A DNA stretch of 64,000 bases. It comes from Eledone cirrhosa. Lineage: Eukaryota. Position 1 is the first letter of the stretch, and the number at the start of each line of letters is the position of its first letter. This document shows, piece by piece, positions 1,487-30,600 of this stretch. The stretch covers positions 62,000,001 through 62,064,000 of the forward strand of contig OZ024741.1 in the NCBI GenBank assembly GCA_964016885.1. The letters are read 5' to 3'. Made by a program: the position numbers and the translations under genes. The notes under the pieces are model-generated. The model was not told the origin of the DNA and ran no database searches. It worked only from the letters and a program-made list of their open reading frames with translations.

Positions 1487-1840
1487 CTATTCTTTAGGGT
1501 ATAAAGTGGGGCTGTAATACAGGACATTTTTGTGCAATTTATGTTTACAAGCCGAAATTGCCTCAGATTTGTTGTTTAAGATGTGGTCTGTGGCGTAGAG
1601 TATTTCCAGGGCCTCAGCGGCGCAGAGGTCACGTGGTCTTTTATTTCCGTTATACGATCTAGCCCTAGCTAGGATCTCCCAGTGTAACTTATATTGGGTG
1701 TGGTTGTCTTTTAGACTCCAGATATAAGCTGAAAGTGACGTCATATTCCTTCTTAGAGGGTAACGAAAAGAATGGTTATGCATGTAAAGTCGTTGCTTGA
1801 AACTGTTGGCGGTTAACTCTATGTAGGCCCTACGGGACGT
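1487..1840 (-). mobile_element. PLE GIY-YIG endonuclease C-terminal fragment (family distinct from 1946-7772)
   Basis: YIELTANSFKQRLYMHNHSF...TSLSAYIWSLK...WEILARA..Y...DLCAAE...LNNKSE...CKH fits the PLE endonuclease C-terminus pattern. Confidence 0.7.
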
Positions 1841-1894
1841 GGGTGTTACAACCTTACATTTGTAGTTGGATTTTAGTCTTCAAATTTATTATTA

Positions 1895-1951: not shown

Positions 1952-4236
1952 ATACTTGGGGAGGGTCATATTTGTGTAATATTGCCAGAATTAATAACAG
2001 AACACACACACTGTTTGATTGGTTTTCGCTTCTCGCTTCTGTGTCTTTTATATCGGTAATCTAATTTATTCAGTCCTCAATGTTGCCATTGACTGACCAA
2101 CGGTAAAAAATAATACAGATACAATATAGACACAAACACATATATATAGTTTATCAAAGTTCTTTCGTTGCACATCTGCAACATCGTCAGTGGTGCTATT
2201 GTTTCCTCCCGTTACATTGTATGTCTACGCCATTTTTATTTAGTCTGTCTATATATTTATTTATTTATTTGTTTCTTTGTTTATTTTATTTTGTCTTCTT
2301 TGCGCATGCGTTTGCGTGTGTGTATAGTGTTTTGTTTGATGTGTGTTCATGATTGGGTGACTGTGTATGGGTTAATGTATTCTATCTTTACTAGTGTGTG
2401 TTTATATGTGTTTGTTGTTATTGTGCTTGTGTATGTATTTATTTATTTATTTATTTATTTATTTATACTTCTCCTAGGTCAGTGTTGTTTGTTAGGGTGT
2501 TGTTGTTATTCCATTGATTCTTTCTGTTTAGTCTTGGCCTTCTAAGTTCTATTTCACTAGCCTCTCTGATTTGCCTATCTGCTGGGTCATTTCTATGTTT
2601 AGATATTATTCTAATTTCTATGTTGTCTATGTTACCGTCGTGTTGTTGTCTGGCATGTTTGTATAGTACTGACCCGTTTTTTCGTCCTTTTAGTTCCCCC
2701 AGTGTTGGTCTATCCTTTCACCTATGCTACGAGCTGTCTCGCCTATGTATGTTGTTGTCATGTTTCTGCAAGTACCCTCTGTACATCTTATGCTATAGAC
2801 TACGTTTCTAGTTTTACAGTTTATCCGGGGGTTTACCTTACATATGATACATTTCCTATTAGTACAATGGGTTTTCTTAAAAGGGTAGGTTTTGCTGATC
2901 AGGGATTTTATGGTGGTTCCTGGCTTTTCTACCACCTTAATCTTTAAGTGGGTCTTTCTGAGGGCCTTTCTACACTGGTTAGCTAATTTCCCTCCAGGGG
3001 TAGCTTCCACAAACATGACACTCTGGTATCTCTGGTTGTCGTACCATGAGCTGGCTTTCCCTATCTTATGTCTAGCCCTATCTAAGGTATTTCATGATTT
3101 GCTTCTGTATAATGGGCAAATTCCTTTCATGTCCAGTTCTATGAGGCTCTTATACTTCTCCATGGCTCCTTCGTATACTCAGACTCTGTCTCTTTGGTTG
3201 TAGCCAGAGAACTGCATGTGGTTAATGAAGTGTTTGATGTGTCTTTCTATTTCTGTTGGGTCGCACATGCGGGACACATTCTTCATCACTCGTACCAAAT
3301 CTGCGATCAGAATATTAAACTTAGCACTACTGGACATTGCTGAGTTTTTGAGTATCAGGTATTTGGAGGCCGTGGGTTTAGCATAGTGTGAGTGGAGAAT
3401 GTGGGCTCTCTCGTCTATAGTGTTAATCCAGAGTTCCGTGTCTAATACAGGTAGTCTATTGTTAGGGTGTTTGGAAGGGTAGTCGATAGTTACAGTTATA
3501 CTCTGGTGTATGGAATTAGCTATCTGTTGGATGATTTCTATTGTGCTACGTTCTAAATCAAACTTGTTAGTGCTCTCTTGTGGGGATGTTCTTATAACTA
3601 TATTGATATCGTCTACGTAACGAGAGTACATGATGAGGTCTATGGAGCTCTCATTAGGGAGATCTTTAAGTCTCCTTTCCCACTATACCATAAAAGGGTT
3701 GGCAACATCACCAGCTATGCTGACGCCAATGGCTGCTCCCTCATTTTGGGTGTAGATCTTCTCGTTGAACTTGAATATGTGACCCTTTAGGGTAGTTTTG
3801 ATACTAGCCCCTATTGCATGTGCAACCATTTTTCTTACCTGATCATTGTTTTGGGGAGTCAGTATAGCTTTGGTCCACCCAATCCACCTTCCCATCGGAG
3901 TCTTTTTTGCCATTGAGGTTATGGTGGGGGGTCTACCTCTTATGGGTCTACTAGGGCAGAAACGTATAAGGTCATGGCTGTCTAGGTAGTCAGTGTCGTA
4001 GGTAAGTCTAAGTAGGAGGCCCAGTTCGTCTGTGTCGACGTCGCAGAACTCCACCTCACTCTCAATGATCATCTCCACATTTTTCCACAGCAAAATCAAT
4101 GTTAATGGATGGGTACAGTGATACCACATCCATGCTGCCTATTATGCAGTTGGATAGGTTCCTGTTTTTGTTGCACTCACTGATTCTGCTGAGGAGGTCC
4201 TCTGTACTGCCACATACATCTGGGGACATCTTGATA
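1946..4236 (-). mobile_element. Penelope-like element, inverted 5'-truncated arm
   Basis: Reverse complement of ~5425-7730; RT motifs (GAAIGVSIAG, YSRYVDD) and GIY-YIG (VVYSIRC...YIGET); abuts (TA)n. Confidence 0.92.
2146..2199 (-). ncRNA. Hammerhead-like ribozyme in PLE 3' region (pLTR)
   Basis: ATAG-CACCA CTGACGA T GTTGCA gatg TGCAAC GAAA GAAC TT TGAT AAA CTAT: intact core and 6-bp stem II, but weak stem III and a CUU triplet. Confidence 0.6.
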
Positions 4237-4294: not shown

Positions 4295-7150
4295 GTGAGG
4301 AATAGTAATAATGGTAATAATACTAACGATAGACAGAACAACAACAACCACAATAATAATAATAATATAAACATTAACCACAGACACAGCAGCAGCGACC
4401 ACAGTTGTAATAACGGTAACAATACGAACAACAACAACCACAGTGGTAATAATGGAAATAATACATGTAGCAACATTAATGATAGACACAACAAAAACAA
4501 GAAACATAATAAAAGTAACAACCACAATGGTAGAAATAACAGTAACAACAACAATAACGGTGAAGTAAACAACAATCACAGCAACAATACATCTAGCAAT
4601 CATAACAACAATACATCTAACAATCACAGCAACAATACACCTAGCAATCATAACAACAATACATCTAACAATCACAGCAACAATACATCTAGCACATATA
4701 ACAATAATAATAATGCTAATGATAGGAACAACAACAACCACCATGATAACAATAATAGCAACACACACAACTATGACGATAGATATAATGACAACCCCTT
4801 AGAGAAACTATTTTTCAACCCAGCTGACAAAACATATAAGATGGGTAATATCTATTCTACGAGGTTACCCTTTAATAAAAGAGTTTGCATACCACAACAA
4901 ATAGATAACGAGACAGAGCCACAGTTCACCATAGCTAGAAATAAGATTAGACAAATAGTAGACCGGTAAACTAAGAGACAGAGCAGACCAGAGGCCCAAC
5001 AACTTGGGAGGAAACCTGTAGAAGGCTTGGTTAACCTCAAGCAGCGCACAAGGGATGGTGAGGTAGTATGTCTACCCACGGATAAGTCTGGTAGGATGTC
5101 AATAGATAGCATGTCGAACTACATCAAGGCTATGCAACCCCACATCACCAACACGAGCGAAATTGCACAGCAAACACATGATGGGAGAGAGAAAATCCTC
5201 AACGCTCACATGATGATGTGGACTGACATCCTAAAGCCAAGCAGACGCACTGCCAACAACTTCCAGGCGTCTAACAATGGCATACCACCCTTGTATGGGC
5301 TCCGCAAAAACCACAAGACAGTCGACGACCCGACAACAGGACCACCAACAAGACCCGTATGCGGAGCTAATATAGCTAGCAACTACAGGATCTCCTACAT
5401 CCTCTCAATGGTTATACGCCCCATATTCAAGATGTCCCCAGATGTGTGTGATAGTACAGAGGACCTCCTCAGCAGAATCAGTGAGTGCAACAAAAACAGG
5501 AACCTATCCAACTGCATAATAGGCAGCATGGATGTGGTATCACTGTACCCATCCATTAACATTGATTGTACTGTAGAAAAATGTGTGGAGATGATCATTG
5601 AGAGTGAGGTGGAGTTCTGTGACGTCGACACAGACGAACTGGGCCTCCTACTTAGACTTACCTACGACACTGACTACCTAGACAGCCATGACCTTAGACG
5701 TTTCTGCCCTAATAGACCCATAAGAGGTAGAACCCCCACCATAACCTCAATGGCAAAAAAGACTCCCATGGGAAGGTGGATTGGGTGGACCAAAGCTTCA
5801 CGGACCCCTCAAAACAATGATCATGTAAGAAAAATGGTCGCACATGCAATAGGGGCTAGTATCAAAACTACCCTAAAGGGCCACATATTCAAGTTCAACG
5901 AGAAGATCTACACCCAAAATGAGGGAGCAGCCATTGGCGTCAGCATAGCTGGTGATGTTGCCAATCTTTTTATGGTATAGTGGGAAAGGAGACTTAAAGA
6001 TCTCCTTAATGAGAGCTCCATAGACCTCATCATGTACTCTCGTTACGTAGACGATATCAATATAGTTATAAGAACATCCCCGCTAGAGAGCACTAACAAG
6101 TTTGATTTAGAACGTAGCACAGTGGAAAGCATCCAGCAGATAGCTAATTCCATACACCAGAGTATAACTGTAACTATCGACTACCCTTCCAAACACCCTA
6201 ACAATAGACTACCTGTATTAGACACGGAACTCTGGATTAACACTATAGACGAGAGAGCCCAAATTCTCCACTCACACTATGCTAAACCCATGGCCTCCAA
6301 ATACCTGATACTCAAAAACTCAGCAATGTCCAGTAGTGCTAAGTTTAATATTCTGATCGTAGATTTGGTACGAGTGATGAAGAATATGTCCCGCATGTGC
6401 GACCCAACAGAAATGGAAAGACACATCCAACACTTCATCAACCGCATGCAGTTATCTGGCTACAACCAAAGAGACAGAGTCAGAGTATACGAAGGGGCCA
6501 TGGAGAAGTATAAGAACCTCATAGAACTGAACATGAAAGGAATTTGCCCATTATGCAGGAGCAAATCATGGAATAGCTTAGATAGGGCTAGACATAAGAT
6601 AGTGAAAGCCACCTCATGATACGACAACCAGAGATACCAGAGTGTCATGTTTGTGGACGCTACCCCTGGAGGGAAATTAGCTAACCAGTGTAGAAAGGCC
6701 CTCAGAAAGACCCACTTAAAGATTAAGGTGGTAGAAAAGCCAGGAACCACCATAAAATCCCTGATCACTAAAACCTACCCTTTTAAGAAAACCCACTGTA
6801 CTAATAGGAAATGTATCATATGTAAGGTAAACCCCCGGATAACTGTAAAACTAGAAACGTAGTCTATAGCATAAGATGTACAGAGGGTACTTGCAGAAAC
6901 ATGACAACAACATACATAGGCGAGACAGCTCGTAGCATAGGTGAAAGGATAGACCAACACTGGGGGAACTAAAAGGACGAAAAAACGGGTCAGTACTATA
7001 CGAACATGCCAGACAACAACACGACAGTAACATAGACAACATAGAAATTAGAATAATATCTAAACATAGAAATGACCCAGCAGATAGGCAAATCAGAGAG
7101 GCCAGTGAAATATAACTTAGAAGGCCAAGACTAAACAGAAAGAATGAATG
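4295..7150 (+). pseudogene. Disrupted PLE RT-endonuclease ORF
   Basis: ORF pieces 4295-4969, 5027-5980, 6032-6619 and 6647-6862 are in one frame, split by TAA/TAG/TGA; frameshifts near 6845 and 6965. Confidence 0.85.
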
Positions 7151-14984: not shown

Positions 14985-15098
14985 AAGAATATTTCATATA
15001 TATATATATACCCGTAACTCCTGTTAGTGTCGTAGAGACCTAGAGGCGTTTCTTGGGGATTTTTTAAAACCTTGCTGAAACCATCCCCTCTCCAAGTC

Positions 15099-15153
<55 letters not shown>

Positions 15154-15164
15154 TATGAAGGAAG

Positions 15165-15315
15165 AATTGACCCCCAGTACTGGACTGGTACATTTTTTCA
15201 ACCTGAAAGGTAACGATGACCTCGGCGTGATATGAACTCAGAGTGTGGAGGGACGGAACAAATGCCGTAAAGCATTCCGTCCGAAGTTCTAGTAACTTCG
15301 CCGTTCCGCCGCCTT
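15165..15315 (-). mobile_element. tRNA-derived SINE
   Basis: gacccccagtactggactggtac...tgaactcaga...ccgccgcc. Confidence 0.65.
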
Positions 15316-15342
15316 CATATATATATATATATTTACACACAG

Positions 15343-15370
<28 letters not shown>

Positions 15371-15375
<5 letters not shown>

Positions 15376-16043
15376 AATGAAAGTTAGAGTTAATAACTTT
15401 TACTGAAACCCTGTAATGAATAAGCTCCAAGCATAAATACTGAGCATTATAATAATAATATATATGTAGTAAGAAACACAGTAAACCGTGTGTCTAATAT
15501 TACGAGGGTTGAAAGACCACATTTGTTTGAAAAAGTTAACCATGAAGCAGACAGAATGATAAAATAAAATAAAATTATATTATACAAACCGCCTATGCTC
15601 GGAGCTTATTCATTAGAGGGTTTCAGTAAGAGTTATTAACTCTAACTTTCATTTATATTTAGGCTCCCTCATGAGGTGAGCTTATTAAGTTGCGTGTGTT
15701 GGACTGTTGTTTCTAACCAATGCACTCATACCACTTTTGACTTGCGGCGCACGAGGTGATAGATTCATCTTTCTGTTTGAACGTTAGTACTATTGTGTTT
15801 GTCGCATTTAATCAGATTCTCTCGCTGATGATGCCCTGGATTATCTGTTGCAAACACACTCTGGGCGAAACAGATTATCCCTAATCTGTCCGAGAGATAT
15901 AATTGTTATTGAGGCGGTTTGTATAATATAATTTTATTTTATCATTCTGACTGCTTCATGGTTAAATTTTTCAAACAAATGTGGTCTTTCAACCCACGTA
16001 ATATTAGACACACGGTTTACTGTGTTTCTTACTACATATATAT

Positions 16044-16050
<7 letters not shown>
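15371..16050 (+). mobile_element. Second retrozyme-like family (~470-nt unit) with inverted 5' arm, in (TA)n
   Basis: Inverted arm 15371-15594 and forward arm 15594-16050 carrying a canonical hammerhead. Confidence 0.75.
15818..15897 (+). ncRNA. Canonical type I hammerhead ribozyme (predicted GUC cleavage after 15890)
   Basis: TCTCTCG CTGATGA T GCCC...GGGC GAAA CAGATTA tccc TAATCTG TC CGAGAGA; all three stems pair. Confidence 0.9.
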
Positions 16051-16108
<58 letters not shown>

Positions 16109-17552: not shown

Positions 17553-17739
17553 TATTAGTTATGTAATAAACAACAAAAGATAATTATTACATTTACCAGT
17601 GGTTTCTTGAAGGCAGATATTCATATCTGTCTTCAGTCGTCACATTTATTCATTCTGACGACTGAAGACAAATATAAATATCTGCCTTCAAGAAACCACT
17701 GATAAATGTAATAATTATCTTATGTTGTTTATTGCATAA

Positions 17740-17745
<6 letters not shown>
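17553..17745. mobile_element. Palindromic hammerhead-bearing insertion in (TA)n
   Basis: ~90-bp inverted arms around a 13-nt spacer. Confidence 0.8.
17645..17712 (+). ncRNA. Type I hammerhead ribozyme
   Basis: CATT CTGACGA C TGAAG..CTTCA A GAAA CCACTG(A/G) TA AATG; the inverted arm preserves ACCACTGGT stem III and a GUA triplet. Confidence 0.75.
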
Positions 17746-30270: not shown

Positions 30271-30600
30271 ATAATATAAGATCAAAAGATGGTTAAAGGA
30301 GTTCCATGTATTTTATTATGCGCATTTCAAAAACAAACATCATCATGCAATAATATTTGTGTTTTCATCAGATAAAACAGGAGAACATGATATGAAGGCT
30401 AAAAAACACTTGTGGATAGTGCAGTTTTAAATCAACATATATGTTGATTTAAAACTGCACTATCCACAAGTGTTGTTTAGCCTTCATATCATGTTCTCCT
30501 GTTTTATCTGATGAAAACACAAATATTATTGCATGATGATGTTTGTTTTTGAAATGCGCATAATAAAATACATGGAACTCCTTTAACCATCTTTTGATCT

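What the first reader, a model, noticed from the sequence alone, without database searches (positions are those of the whole stretch)
15371..16050. Second ~470-nt retrozyme family whose inverted arm shows a circular or multimeric template
Seen: the forward arm reads A(15594-15658), hammerhead, C(15912-16048). The inverted arm reads C, a 17-nt linker, then A, so the end of the unit is joined to its start. The implied monomer is about 472 nt, close to 466 despite unrelated sequence. The ribozyme is canonical (GUC, stable stem III) and should cleave as a monomer.
Basis: partly seen in the sequence, partly recalled or inferred. Interest (0 to 1): 0.72.

Follow-up and report, generated by a model that had tools for sequence, protein, structure and literature searches.

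The report
Retrozyme family with self-blocking hammerhead
This is one aged copy of a dispersed family of 472-base non-coding jumping elements that carry a hammerhead (self-cutting RNA) motif and land in TA repeats as two mirror-image arms with two different fixed ends; they were likely copied by a Penelope-type enzyme from a unit-length, probably circular RNA, and a conserved neighbouring strand is predicted to hold the ribozyme off.

Summary
Observation confirmed: inverted arm C-linker(17)-A, forward arm A-B(hammerhead)-C, unit 472 nt. The element is a dispersed family: 248 exact ribozyme 18-mers, about 430 loci estimated, no useful ORF. Among 128 loci, 185 of 208 arms end at one of two fixed points about 85 nt apart, mostly in (TA)n; of 62 classifiable inverted insertions 61 have one end of each kind. 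That is the known Penelope-like (PLE) tandem/inverted/tail layout, so the inverted arm alone does not prove a circle. Family data favour a unit-length template: arms reach 3.2 units, 52 of 59 read through the cut site, and repeated units in one arm share subfamily variants (28 of 859 discordant, 39% expected). No copy runs in-line into a parent ORF. New here: loop II pairs over about 17 bp with the strand just upstream of the ribozyme (78 of 81 copies, also two sister families, covarying in one), predicted to block cleavage until downstream RNA is made; this copy stays blocked and has one ribozyme, so it cannot yield a monomer. No RNA run was available. The scan noted similar families before on other DNA. 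Verdict: animal retrozyme/non-autonomous PLE, with a likely ribozyme switch.

The parts
15352..15370 (.). left (TA)n target tract
   Evidence: sequence
15371..15435 (-). inverted arm, tail segment A; ends at fixed 3' end E2 (15371)
   Evidence: 94% to 15594-15661; same end in 102 of 208 arms
15436..15452 (-). 17-nt linker joining C to A (start of the E1-E2 tail)
   Evidence: same junction in many loci
15453..15594 (-). inverted arm, segment C; 5'-truncated start at unit position ~254
   Evidence: 94% to 15912-16054
15594..15658 (+). forward arm, segment A (5'-truncated start, unit position ~410; 1-nt overlap with the inverted arm)
15662..15681 (+). GGCTC...TGAGC hairpin just past E2; like motif follows E2 in sister family X and in a coding Hydra-type PLE
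15794..15813 (+). strand complementary to ribozyme loop II (predicted blocking helix, 17 bp)
   Evidence: duplex -19.4 kcal/mol, 0 of 200 shuffles as good; pair probability 0.99
15818..15897 (+). type I hammerhead ribozyme, extra U after A9, 26-nt loop II, predicted cut after 15890
   Evidence: sequence; stems 99-100% paired in 20 copies
15839..15858 (+). loop II strand that pairs with 15794-15813
15950..15979 (+). downstream strand predicted to sequester the blocking strand in most family members (not in this copy)
   Evidence: consensus-circle fold; median penalty falls from 4.2 to 1.7 kcal/mol in 51 copies
15912..16048 (+). forward arm, segment C; ends at fixed 3' end E1 (~16043-16048)
   Evidence: same end in 83 of 208 arms
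16049..16104 (.). right (TA)n target tract
   Evidence: sequence

Best explanation
This locus is one aged, two-armed insertion of a dispersed 472-nt non-coding hammerhead element that was likely copied by a borrowed Penelope-like RT-endonuclease from a unit-length, probably circular, RNA. Shown: hundreds of dispersed copies, no useful ORF, variable 5' ends, two fixed 3' ends (E1, E2) about 85 nt apart in (TA)n, one of each on the two arms, arms that run through the ribozyme cut site and past one unit, and same-subfamily units within an arm. Inferred: rare loci with two ribozymes give a monomer that is ligated to a circle; the PLE enzyme cuts both strands of a TA tract and primes one strand at E1 and the other at E2; each cDNA runs round the circle until it stops, and the two are joined head to head. 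Predicted: a strand just upstream of the ribozyme pairs with loop II as the RNA is made and holds cleavage off until a segment 70-95 nt past the cut site is transcribed and takes that strand away; this copy stays blocked and is a dead daughter. The helper is not identified; a Hydra-clade PLE is the best candidate.
For: Family size and spread: 153 exact tail 24-mers; 248 exact ribozyme 18-mers; about 430 loci. Ends: 185 of 208 arms at E1/E2; 61 E1/E2, 1 E1/E1, 0 E2/E2 among 62 classifiable inverted insertions (14, 0, 0 in the 40 loci chosen without the tail); 165 of 185 ends followed by TA. The same E1/E2 pairing in 15 of 30 loci of a coding Hydra-type PLE, none with E2 on both strands, and in the window's 466 array. 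Read-through: 52 of 59 arms pass the cut site, 3 5' ends at u228-240 against 2.7 expected; 19 of 88 tail-chosen arms exceed one unit; longest 1518 and 1110 nt. Homogeneity: at 54 subfamily-diagnostic sites tandem units differ in 28 of 859 pairs (3.3%; background 3.6%; 39% if random), with arms over 1.2 units in 6 of 8 clusters. No coding continuation: no shared junction-adjacent flank among 71 flanks; longest ATG frame 62 aa. Blocking helix: 78 of 81 copies at <=10 of 200 shuffles, against 2 of 30 and 0 of 8 other hammerhead-like motifs; present with unrelated sequence in families X (92.8% of cells paired) and Y (94.8%, 3 pairs changed on both sides, covariation score reached by 3 of 500 shuffles). 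Literature: PLE layout (PMC8557442), two RT start sites define the tail and both strands are cut and extended (PMC11167929), metazoan retrozyme circles (PMC7229834).
Against: No RNA data: transcription, cleavage and circles are all untested. Only 5 of 128 loci carry two same-strand ribozymes and no long array was seen in the first 100 listed matches of either pattern. In the Anolis PLE the uncleaved linear RNA is the main template in vitro and the ribozyme is dispensable (PMC11167929), so read-through does not need a circle. Within-locus divergence (4.0-4.1%) is no lower than nearest-neighbour divergence between loci (mean 3.1%, a minimum), and only 16 of 176 locus-private alleles are shared by all copies in a locus, so template identity rests on subfamily sites. 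5' ends at u226-246 are mildly in excess (8 against 4.4, p 0.08). The blocking helix shows no two-sided change in this family or in X; the Y result rests on 9 related sequences; all switch energies are nearest-neighbour predictions, the block is above 0.5 in only 30 of 51 copies early and 13 of 51 late, and a partial version could be an activating pseudoknot. No coding PLE with significant nucleotide homology to the unit was found.
Confidence: 0.66

Rival explanations
1. Same element and same PLE helper, but the template is linear: uncleaved read-through RNA of partial-tandem loci, with multimers rebuilt by RT jumping between unit ends or by unequal crossing-over and gene conversion in DNA. 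No circle is needed and the ribozyme is incidental.
For: Uncleaved RNA is the main template for the Anolis PLE (PMC11167929). Few two-ribozyme loci (5 of 128). The ribozyme is predicted to be blocked in nascent RNA. Most arms are under 1.5 units.
Against: Linear copying can only shorten arms, yet 6 of 8 subfamily clusters have arms over 1.2 units with matching variants in both units, also in the always-duplicated tail; no upstream-versus-downstream difference recurs in more than 4 loci; the cut-site junction is intact (C232 142 of 147, C233 143 of 148) and the ribozyme is among the most conserved parts of the unit (0.94-0.97 against 0.89-0.94 in the first 140 nt; partly biased by how 40 loci were chosen).
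Confidence: 0.24
2. The locus is the 5'-truncated stump (pLTR plus inverted copy) of a coding Penelope-like element.
For: The layout is exactly that of coding PLE insertions (PMC8557442). Many coding PLE families live in this genome and only a few were sampled.
Against: Upstream of C the arms always continue into B, A, linker and C again, up to 3.2 units, never into an ORF; A is followed by B or by TA; 71 junction flanks share no common sequence and only 2 hit PLE proteins, from two different families. A profile of the unit finds no PLE pLTR among the PLE loci held.
Confidence: 0.05
3. The upstream-loop II pairing is not an off switch but a short activating pseudoknot between stems I and II, and the ribozyme is fast in context.
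For: About 40% of natural hammerheads use such a pseudoknot (PMC3088659, passages); stems I and II have the usual 7 and 4 bp; the loop is highly conserved.
Against: The helix covers 20 of 26 loop nucleotides here and 21-22 bp in family X, too long to coexist with a closed stem II (geometric inference); in X and Y it extends into stem II or next to it; pseudoknots tested in that paper were 5-6 bp.
Confidence: 0.25
4. A fold-back DNA element or a local DNA rearrangement made the inverted repeat.
For: Long inverted arms at both ends of a short non-coding element.
Against: Inversion points differ from locus to locus while 3' ends are fixed, arms are asymmetric, 48 of 128 loci have one arm, and tandem arms exist.
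Confidence: 0.02

Closest known systems
Metazoan non-LTR retrozymes (Cervera and de la Pena 2020, PMC7229834; Li, Clavereau and Pollet 2026, bioRxiv 10.64898/2026.07.22.740005)
   Same: Short non-coding unit, one type I hammerhead per unit, GC under 45%, head-to-tail multimers and monomers, co-existence with PLEs, PLE mobilisation proposed.
   Different: Unit 472 nt (170-400 in the tested invertebrates; 51-972 in the vertebrate survey); mostly dispersed two-armed insertions rather than arrays; 8-bp stem III and 26-nt loop II; a long helix predicted to block the ribozyme, whereas most metazoan circles were predicted to leave it free (some mussel ones excepted); circles not shown here.
Insertions of EN+ Penelope-like elements (Craig et al. 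2021, PMC8557442; Frangieh et al. 2024, PMC11167929), Hydra clade in particular
   Same: Partial tandem, inverted 5'-truncated copy, tail at one end only, (TA)n target, hammerhead, two fixed RT start sites; a Hydra-type family in this genome has ends 84 nt apart each followed by a GCTC...GAGC hairpin, as here.
   Different: No ORF; tail about 85 nt, not 30-40; full monomer-type ribozyme rather than the minimal dimer-type one; Frangieh et al. saw no difference in start site between strands in vitro, whereas here the two arms almost always use different ends.
Plant LTR retrozymes (Cervera et al. 2016, PMC4918200)
   Same: Ribozyme predicted to be held off by a complementary strand.
   Different: Type III ribozyme in LTRs, Gypsy helper, 4-bp target duplications; there the block is a long rod in the circle, here a local upstream strand with a predicted downstream release.
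Non-autonomous Chlamys PLEs such as MRC1 (PMC8557442)
   Same: Non-coding, pLTR-forming, often multicopy head-to-tail PLE passengers.
   Different: They resemble their helper at the 3' end and mostly lack hammerheads; here no clear helper homology was found.

Membership tests
Metazoan non-LTR retrozyme | type I hammerhead in each unit | tested here: met
   15818-15897; stems 99-100% paired in 20 copies; one extra U after A9; no Rfam hit
Metazoan non-LTR retrozyme | short non-coding unit, low GC | tested here: met
   472 nt, longest ATG frame 62 aa; 37% GC for 15001-16000
Metazoan non-LTR retrozyme | head-to-tail repeats with two or more ribozymes | tested here: met
   met by the family (5 of 128 loci, up to 3 ribozymes), not by this locus (one ribozyme)
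Metazoan non-LTR retrozyme | self-cleavage of the RNA | not testable with these tools
   folding predictions only
Metazoan non-LTR retrozyme | accumulates as unit-length linear and circular RNA | not testable with these tools
   no RNA holder listed; indirect support
PLE-type insertion | fixed 3' ends, variable 5' truncation, partial tandem | tested here: met
PLE-type insertion | inverted 5'-truncated copy; tail at one end only | tested here: met
   80 of 128 loci inverted; 61 of 62 classifiable have the tail at one end
PLE-type insertion | (TA)n target | tested here: met
   165 of 185 ends
Coding PLE (pLTR of an autonomous element) | RT and GIY-YIG ORF between pLTRs | tested here: not met
   units follow units; no common coding flank in 71 junctions
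Non-autonomous derivative of a named PLE family | sequence homology to the helper's pLTR or 3' end | tested here: inconclusive
   no significant profile hit in four sampled PLE sets; motif-level likeness to a Hydra-type family (post-hoc p 0.008); three chimeric junctions, not above PLE density
Plant LTR retrozyme | type III ribozyme in LTRs | tested here: not met
   type I topology, no LTR pair

The most novel reading that the evidence does not exclude
A clan of animal retrozymes (this family and two sisters of 471 and 512 nt) uses a conserved, covarying RNA switch in which an upstream strand locks ribozyme loop II until downstream sequence is made, so the RNA circle is stable enough to be rolled by a dimeric Hydra-type Penelope enzyme that always primes the two cut DNA strands at two different hairpin-marked sites. 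The family is then a genomic record of coupled two-site priming on a circular template, with a 470-nt substrate for testing it.
Probability: 0.3. Interest if true: 0.72.

Novelty: new variant of a known kind. Interest (0 to 1): 0.45.

Why it matters
The class is known, and the scan has noted similar families before. Two things add value. First, how PLEs make tandem, inverted and tailed insertions is an open question (PMC8557442, PMC11167929); a 61:1:0 rule for the two ends, seen also in a coding PLE and in the 466 family, says the two priming events are coupled and unequal, and a 470-nt passenger is a small substrate to test that. Second, the role of hammerheads in PLEs and retrozymes is unclear; a conserved helix over loop II gives a direct, cheap test of regulated cleavage and of how animal ribozyme circles avoid cutting themselves.

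Tried and rejected
Rfam found no hammerhead at the locus or among the 150 rows listed for the window, so the call rests on manual structure. RNA evidence: no RNA holder listed; three contig sets of unknown kind from one sample hold the family but show nothing on expression or ends. A pile-up of 5' ends at the cut site or at one unit length was tested and not found. Private-variant test for a shared template was weak. The ~185-nt insert at E1 in several copies was first suspected to be part of a composite unit; it is a genome-wide SINE-like repeat (53,787 exact 19-mers) and the two inserts in L050 differ. Helper search: Hydra-type families of L137 and L286, GIY-YIG hits L191-L220 and the family next to L056 gave no significant homology; profile hits beside Neptune-like copies L211 and L218 were a sister non-coding family in the TA tract. 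Chimeric junctions with PLEs (L074, L110, L056) are 3 of 48 single-arm 5' flanks, while those PLEs make up 2.5% and 0.6% of fetched DNA, so they are hints only. The energies had a register error in stem III and were discarded; one search is the corrected run. A family accession recalled from memory was not in the Pfam copy. Literature searches for a cephalopod retrozyme, for this kind of loop II block and for strand-specific PLE ends listed no description of this family or helix; Repbase and Dfam could not be searched and no supplements were read, so the family may already be in a repeat library.

Full report
Observation. The window is G000:C2:62,000,001-62,064,000 of a 3.0-Gb animal assembly rich in microsatellites; earlier scan notes on this genome call it octopus (unchecked). 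Self-BLAST confirms the layout: 15912-16054 matches 15594-15448 on the minus strand at 93.9%, and 15594-15661 matches 15435-15368 at 94.1%. The inverted arm reads C, a 17-nt linker, A; the forward arm reads A, B, C; the implied unit is 472 nt. The type I hammerhead is at 15818-15897 with GUC at 15888-15890. It has one extra U after A9, a feature reported for PLE ribozymes (PMC4209133, passages read), and an unusually long 26-nt loop II. Rfam does not detect it. The unit shares nothing with the 466 family beyond AT-rich 10-mers.

Family. A DNA search gave 1134 first-look candidates, 40 scored, 48 matches at 90-100%. Exact patterns gave 153 tail and 248 ribozyme matches, controls 0 (only the first 100 of each are listed). 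Capture-recapture on the two largest contigs (40 tail loci, 77 ribozyme loci, 25 shared) suggests about 430 loci, a rough figure. I examined 130 loci (30 from the DNA search, 60 from the tail list, 40 from the ribozyme list) and dropped two duplicates (L013, L019). Mapped on a natural 472-nt unit, 185 of 208 arms end at E1 (unit position about 385-395, 83 arms) or E2 (position 472, 102 arms), while 5' ends vary. 165 of these 185 ends are followed by TA repeats. Eighty loci are head-to-head inversions; 18 have an unclassifiable end; of the other 62, 61 are E1/E2, one E1/E1, none E2/E2. In the 40 loci not chosen by the tail the count is 14, 0, 0. The window locus follows the rule: E2 on the left, E1 on the right.

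What the layout means. Partial tandem, inverted 5'-truncated copy, tail at one end only and TA targets are the described PLE layout (PMC8557442; passages and the Hydra section read). In vitro, a PLE protein cuts and extends both strands of AT-rich DNA and starts reverse transcription at two internal sites that bound the tail (PMC11167929; parts 1-2 of 4 read). So the inverted arm is expected and does not itself show a circle. A coding Hydra-type family in this genome shows the same pairing in 15 of 30 loci, never E2 on both strands, and so does the window's 466 array. That paper saw no strand difference in start sites; the near-absolute pairing here implies the two priming events are coupled and unequal (inference). 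An earlier scan note reached the same reading for another family (e1-9836639).

Coding parent or passenger. Arms run unit into unit: 19 of 88 tail-chosen arms exceed one unit and the longest are 1518 and 1110 nt. The 71 non-E1/E2 junction flanks share no common adjacent sequence; two hit PLE proteins, of different families. The longest ATG frame in the unit is 62 aa. A unit profile found no PLE pLTR among the loci held, only sister non-coding families.

Circle or linear template. For a circle: 52 of 59 arms that reach the cut site pass it, with no peak of 5' ends there (3 against 2.7 expected at u228-240; 8 against 4.4 at u226-246, p 0.08). At 54 subfamily-diagnostic sites, tandem units within an arm differ in 28 of 859 pairs and opposite arms in 62 of 1140, against 39% for random members and a 3.6% background; 6 of 8 clusters have arms over 1.2 units. 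New variants thus reach every unit of a multimer, which needs a single-unit stage. Against: only 5 of 128 loci have two same-strand ribozymes; private alleles are rarely shared within a locus (16 of 176); uncleaved linear RNA serves the Anolis PLE; template jumping or DNA recombination could also homogenise units. No RNA run was available to test it. I put the circle at about two to one. This locus cannot be a source: one ribozyme, a 453-nt forward arm, arms 4% apart.

The ribozyme in context. Loop II is complementary to the strand just 5' of stem I: 17 bp, -19.4 kcal/mol here; 78 of 81 copies beat all but 10 or fewer of 200 shuffles, against 2 of 30 and 0 of 8 other hammerhead-like motifs. 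The same arrangement occurs with unrelated sequence in family X (22 pairs, 92.8% of cells paired, no two-sided change) and Y (17 pairs, 94.8%, three pairs changed on both sides, covariation score reached by 3 of 500 shuffles in 9 related sequences). In this family it has no two-sided change. Covering 20 of 26 loop bases, it should exclude stem II (geometric inference). In 51 copies the median cost of the active fold is 0.9 kcal/mol alone, 4.2 with the upstream flank and 1.7 once 130 nt downstream are added; the consensus circle costs 0.8; this copy stays at 4.4-7.1. The block exceeds 0.5 probability in 30 of 51 copies early and 13 of 51 late. The X circle folds with the block in place. Blocked ribozymes are described for plant retrozymes and viroids (PMC4918200, passages), while most metazoan circles were predicted free except some mussel ones (PMC7229834, passages and sections 14 and 17). 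Short activating pseudoknots between stems I and II are common (PMC3088659, passages) and remain a rival reading.

Helper. Two young families with Hydra-clade marks have open frames of 713 and 758 aa. The first has ends 84 nt apart, each followed by a GCTC...GAGC hairpin as in this family (post-hoc p 0.008 for the post-E2 match). Two loci join this element directly to that family and one to another GIY-YIG family, but 3 of 48 is not above what PLE density allows. The helper is a candidate, not a result.

Comparison and verdict. It works like, and on the tested features belongs with, metazoan non-LTR retrozymes as PLE passengers (PMC7229834; bioRxiv 10.64898/2026.07.22.740005, parts 1-3 of 5 read). 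Cleavage and circular RNA were not testable. Searches listed no paper on this family or on cephalopod retrozymes; repeat libraries and supplements were not seen. The scan has noted several like families before; none matched this sequence and a word search for the helix gave nothing. The class is known; the long upstream-loop II helix across three sister families and the strict pairing of ends make it a variant worth a bench test. Interest 0.45.

Noticed in passing
window 45.4-59.5 kb: The 466-nt hammerhead array is two head-to-head arms; all 28 units compared (20 plus-strand, 8 minus-strand) are identical; the plus arm ends at unit position ~341 and the minus arm at ~282, the same two-end asymmetry. 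Very young rolling-type event or an assembly effect.
   Followed up: partly
window 22.8-23.6 kb and 29.3-30.2 kb: Two older inverted insertions of the 466 family, each with a ribozyme on both strands.
   Followed up: partly
L221-L250 (family Y, 471 nt) and L251-L280 (family X, 512 nt): Sister non-coding hammerhead families with the same order of parts, tail hairpins and upstream-loop II helix; Y is 67% like this family over 150 nt of the tail.
   Followed up: partly
L044:5949 (+): A further hammerhead-like motif with long upstream-loop II complementarity (-19.6 kcal/mol, 0 of 200 shuffles).
   Followed up: no
L131-L160 and L281-L310: Two abundant young PLE families with open 713- and 758-aa frames showing Hydra-clade marks (RW[RK], DKT, CxCx5C); the first has a ribozyme-like motif with CAGAAGA in place of CUGANGA.
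   Followed up: partly
L074 near 3851; L110 near 3287; L056 near 3270: Direct joins, without a TA tract, between this element and coding PLE sequence: L074 at the only shared 10-mer with a Hydra 3' UTR, L110 at a TTA run with a Hydra arm ending at its E1 on the other side, L056 head to head with another GIY-YIG family.
   Followed up: partly
L003, L021, L044, L047, L048, L050, L052, L066, L087, L094, L095, L112, L116 at unit position ~385-395: A tRNA-like SINE (label from recalled A/B-box motifs) sits at the TTA-rich E1 site in 13 of 128 loci, in both orientations.
   Followed up: partly
L030, L091, L098, L108, L129 and others: The 4-nt loop of stem III is inverted in 14 loci and lost in 4, a hairpin-loop micro-inversion shared by all units of the L091 trimer.
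   Followed up: no
window 17553-17745, 19.4 kb, 20951, 28148, 30371-30508: Further short inverted repeats and hammerhead-like cores of other families.
   Followed up: no
window 1496-1864 (-), 2673-3066, 6597-6989: 3' fragments of the Hydra-type PLE and of the GIY-YIG family seen beside L056.
   Followed up: no
window 15160-15315: SINE-like repeat just left of the element, resembling the insert found in other copies (sequence).
   Followed up: no
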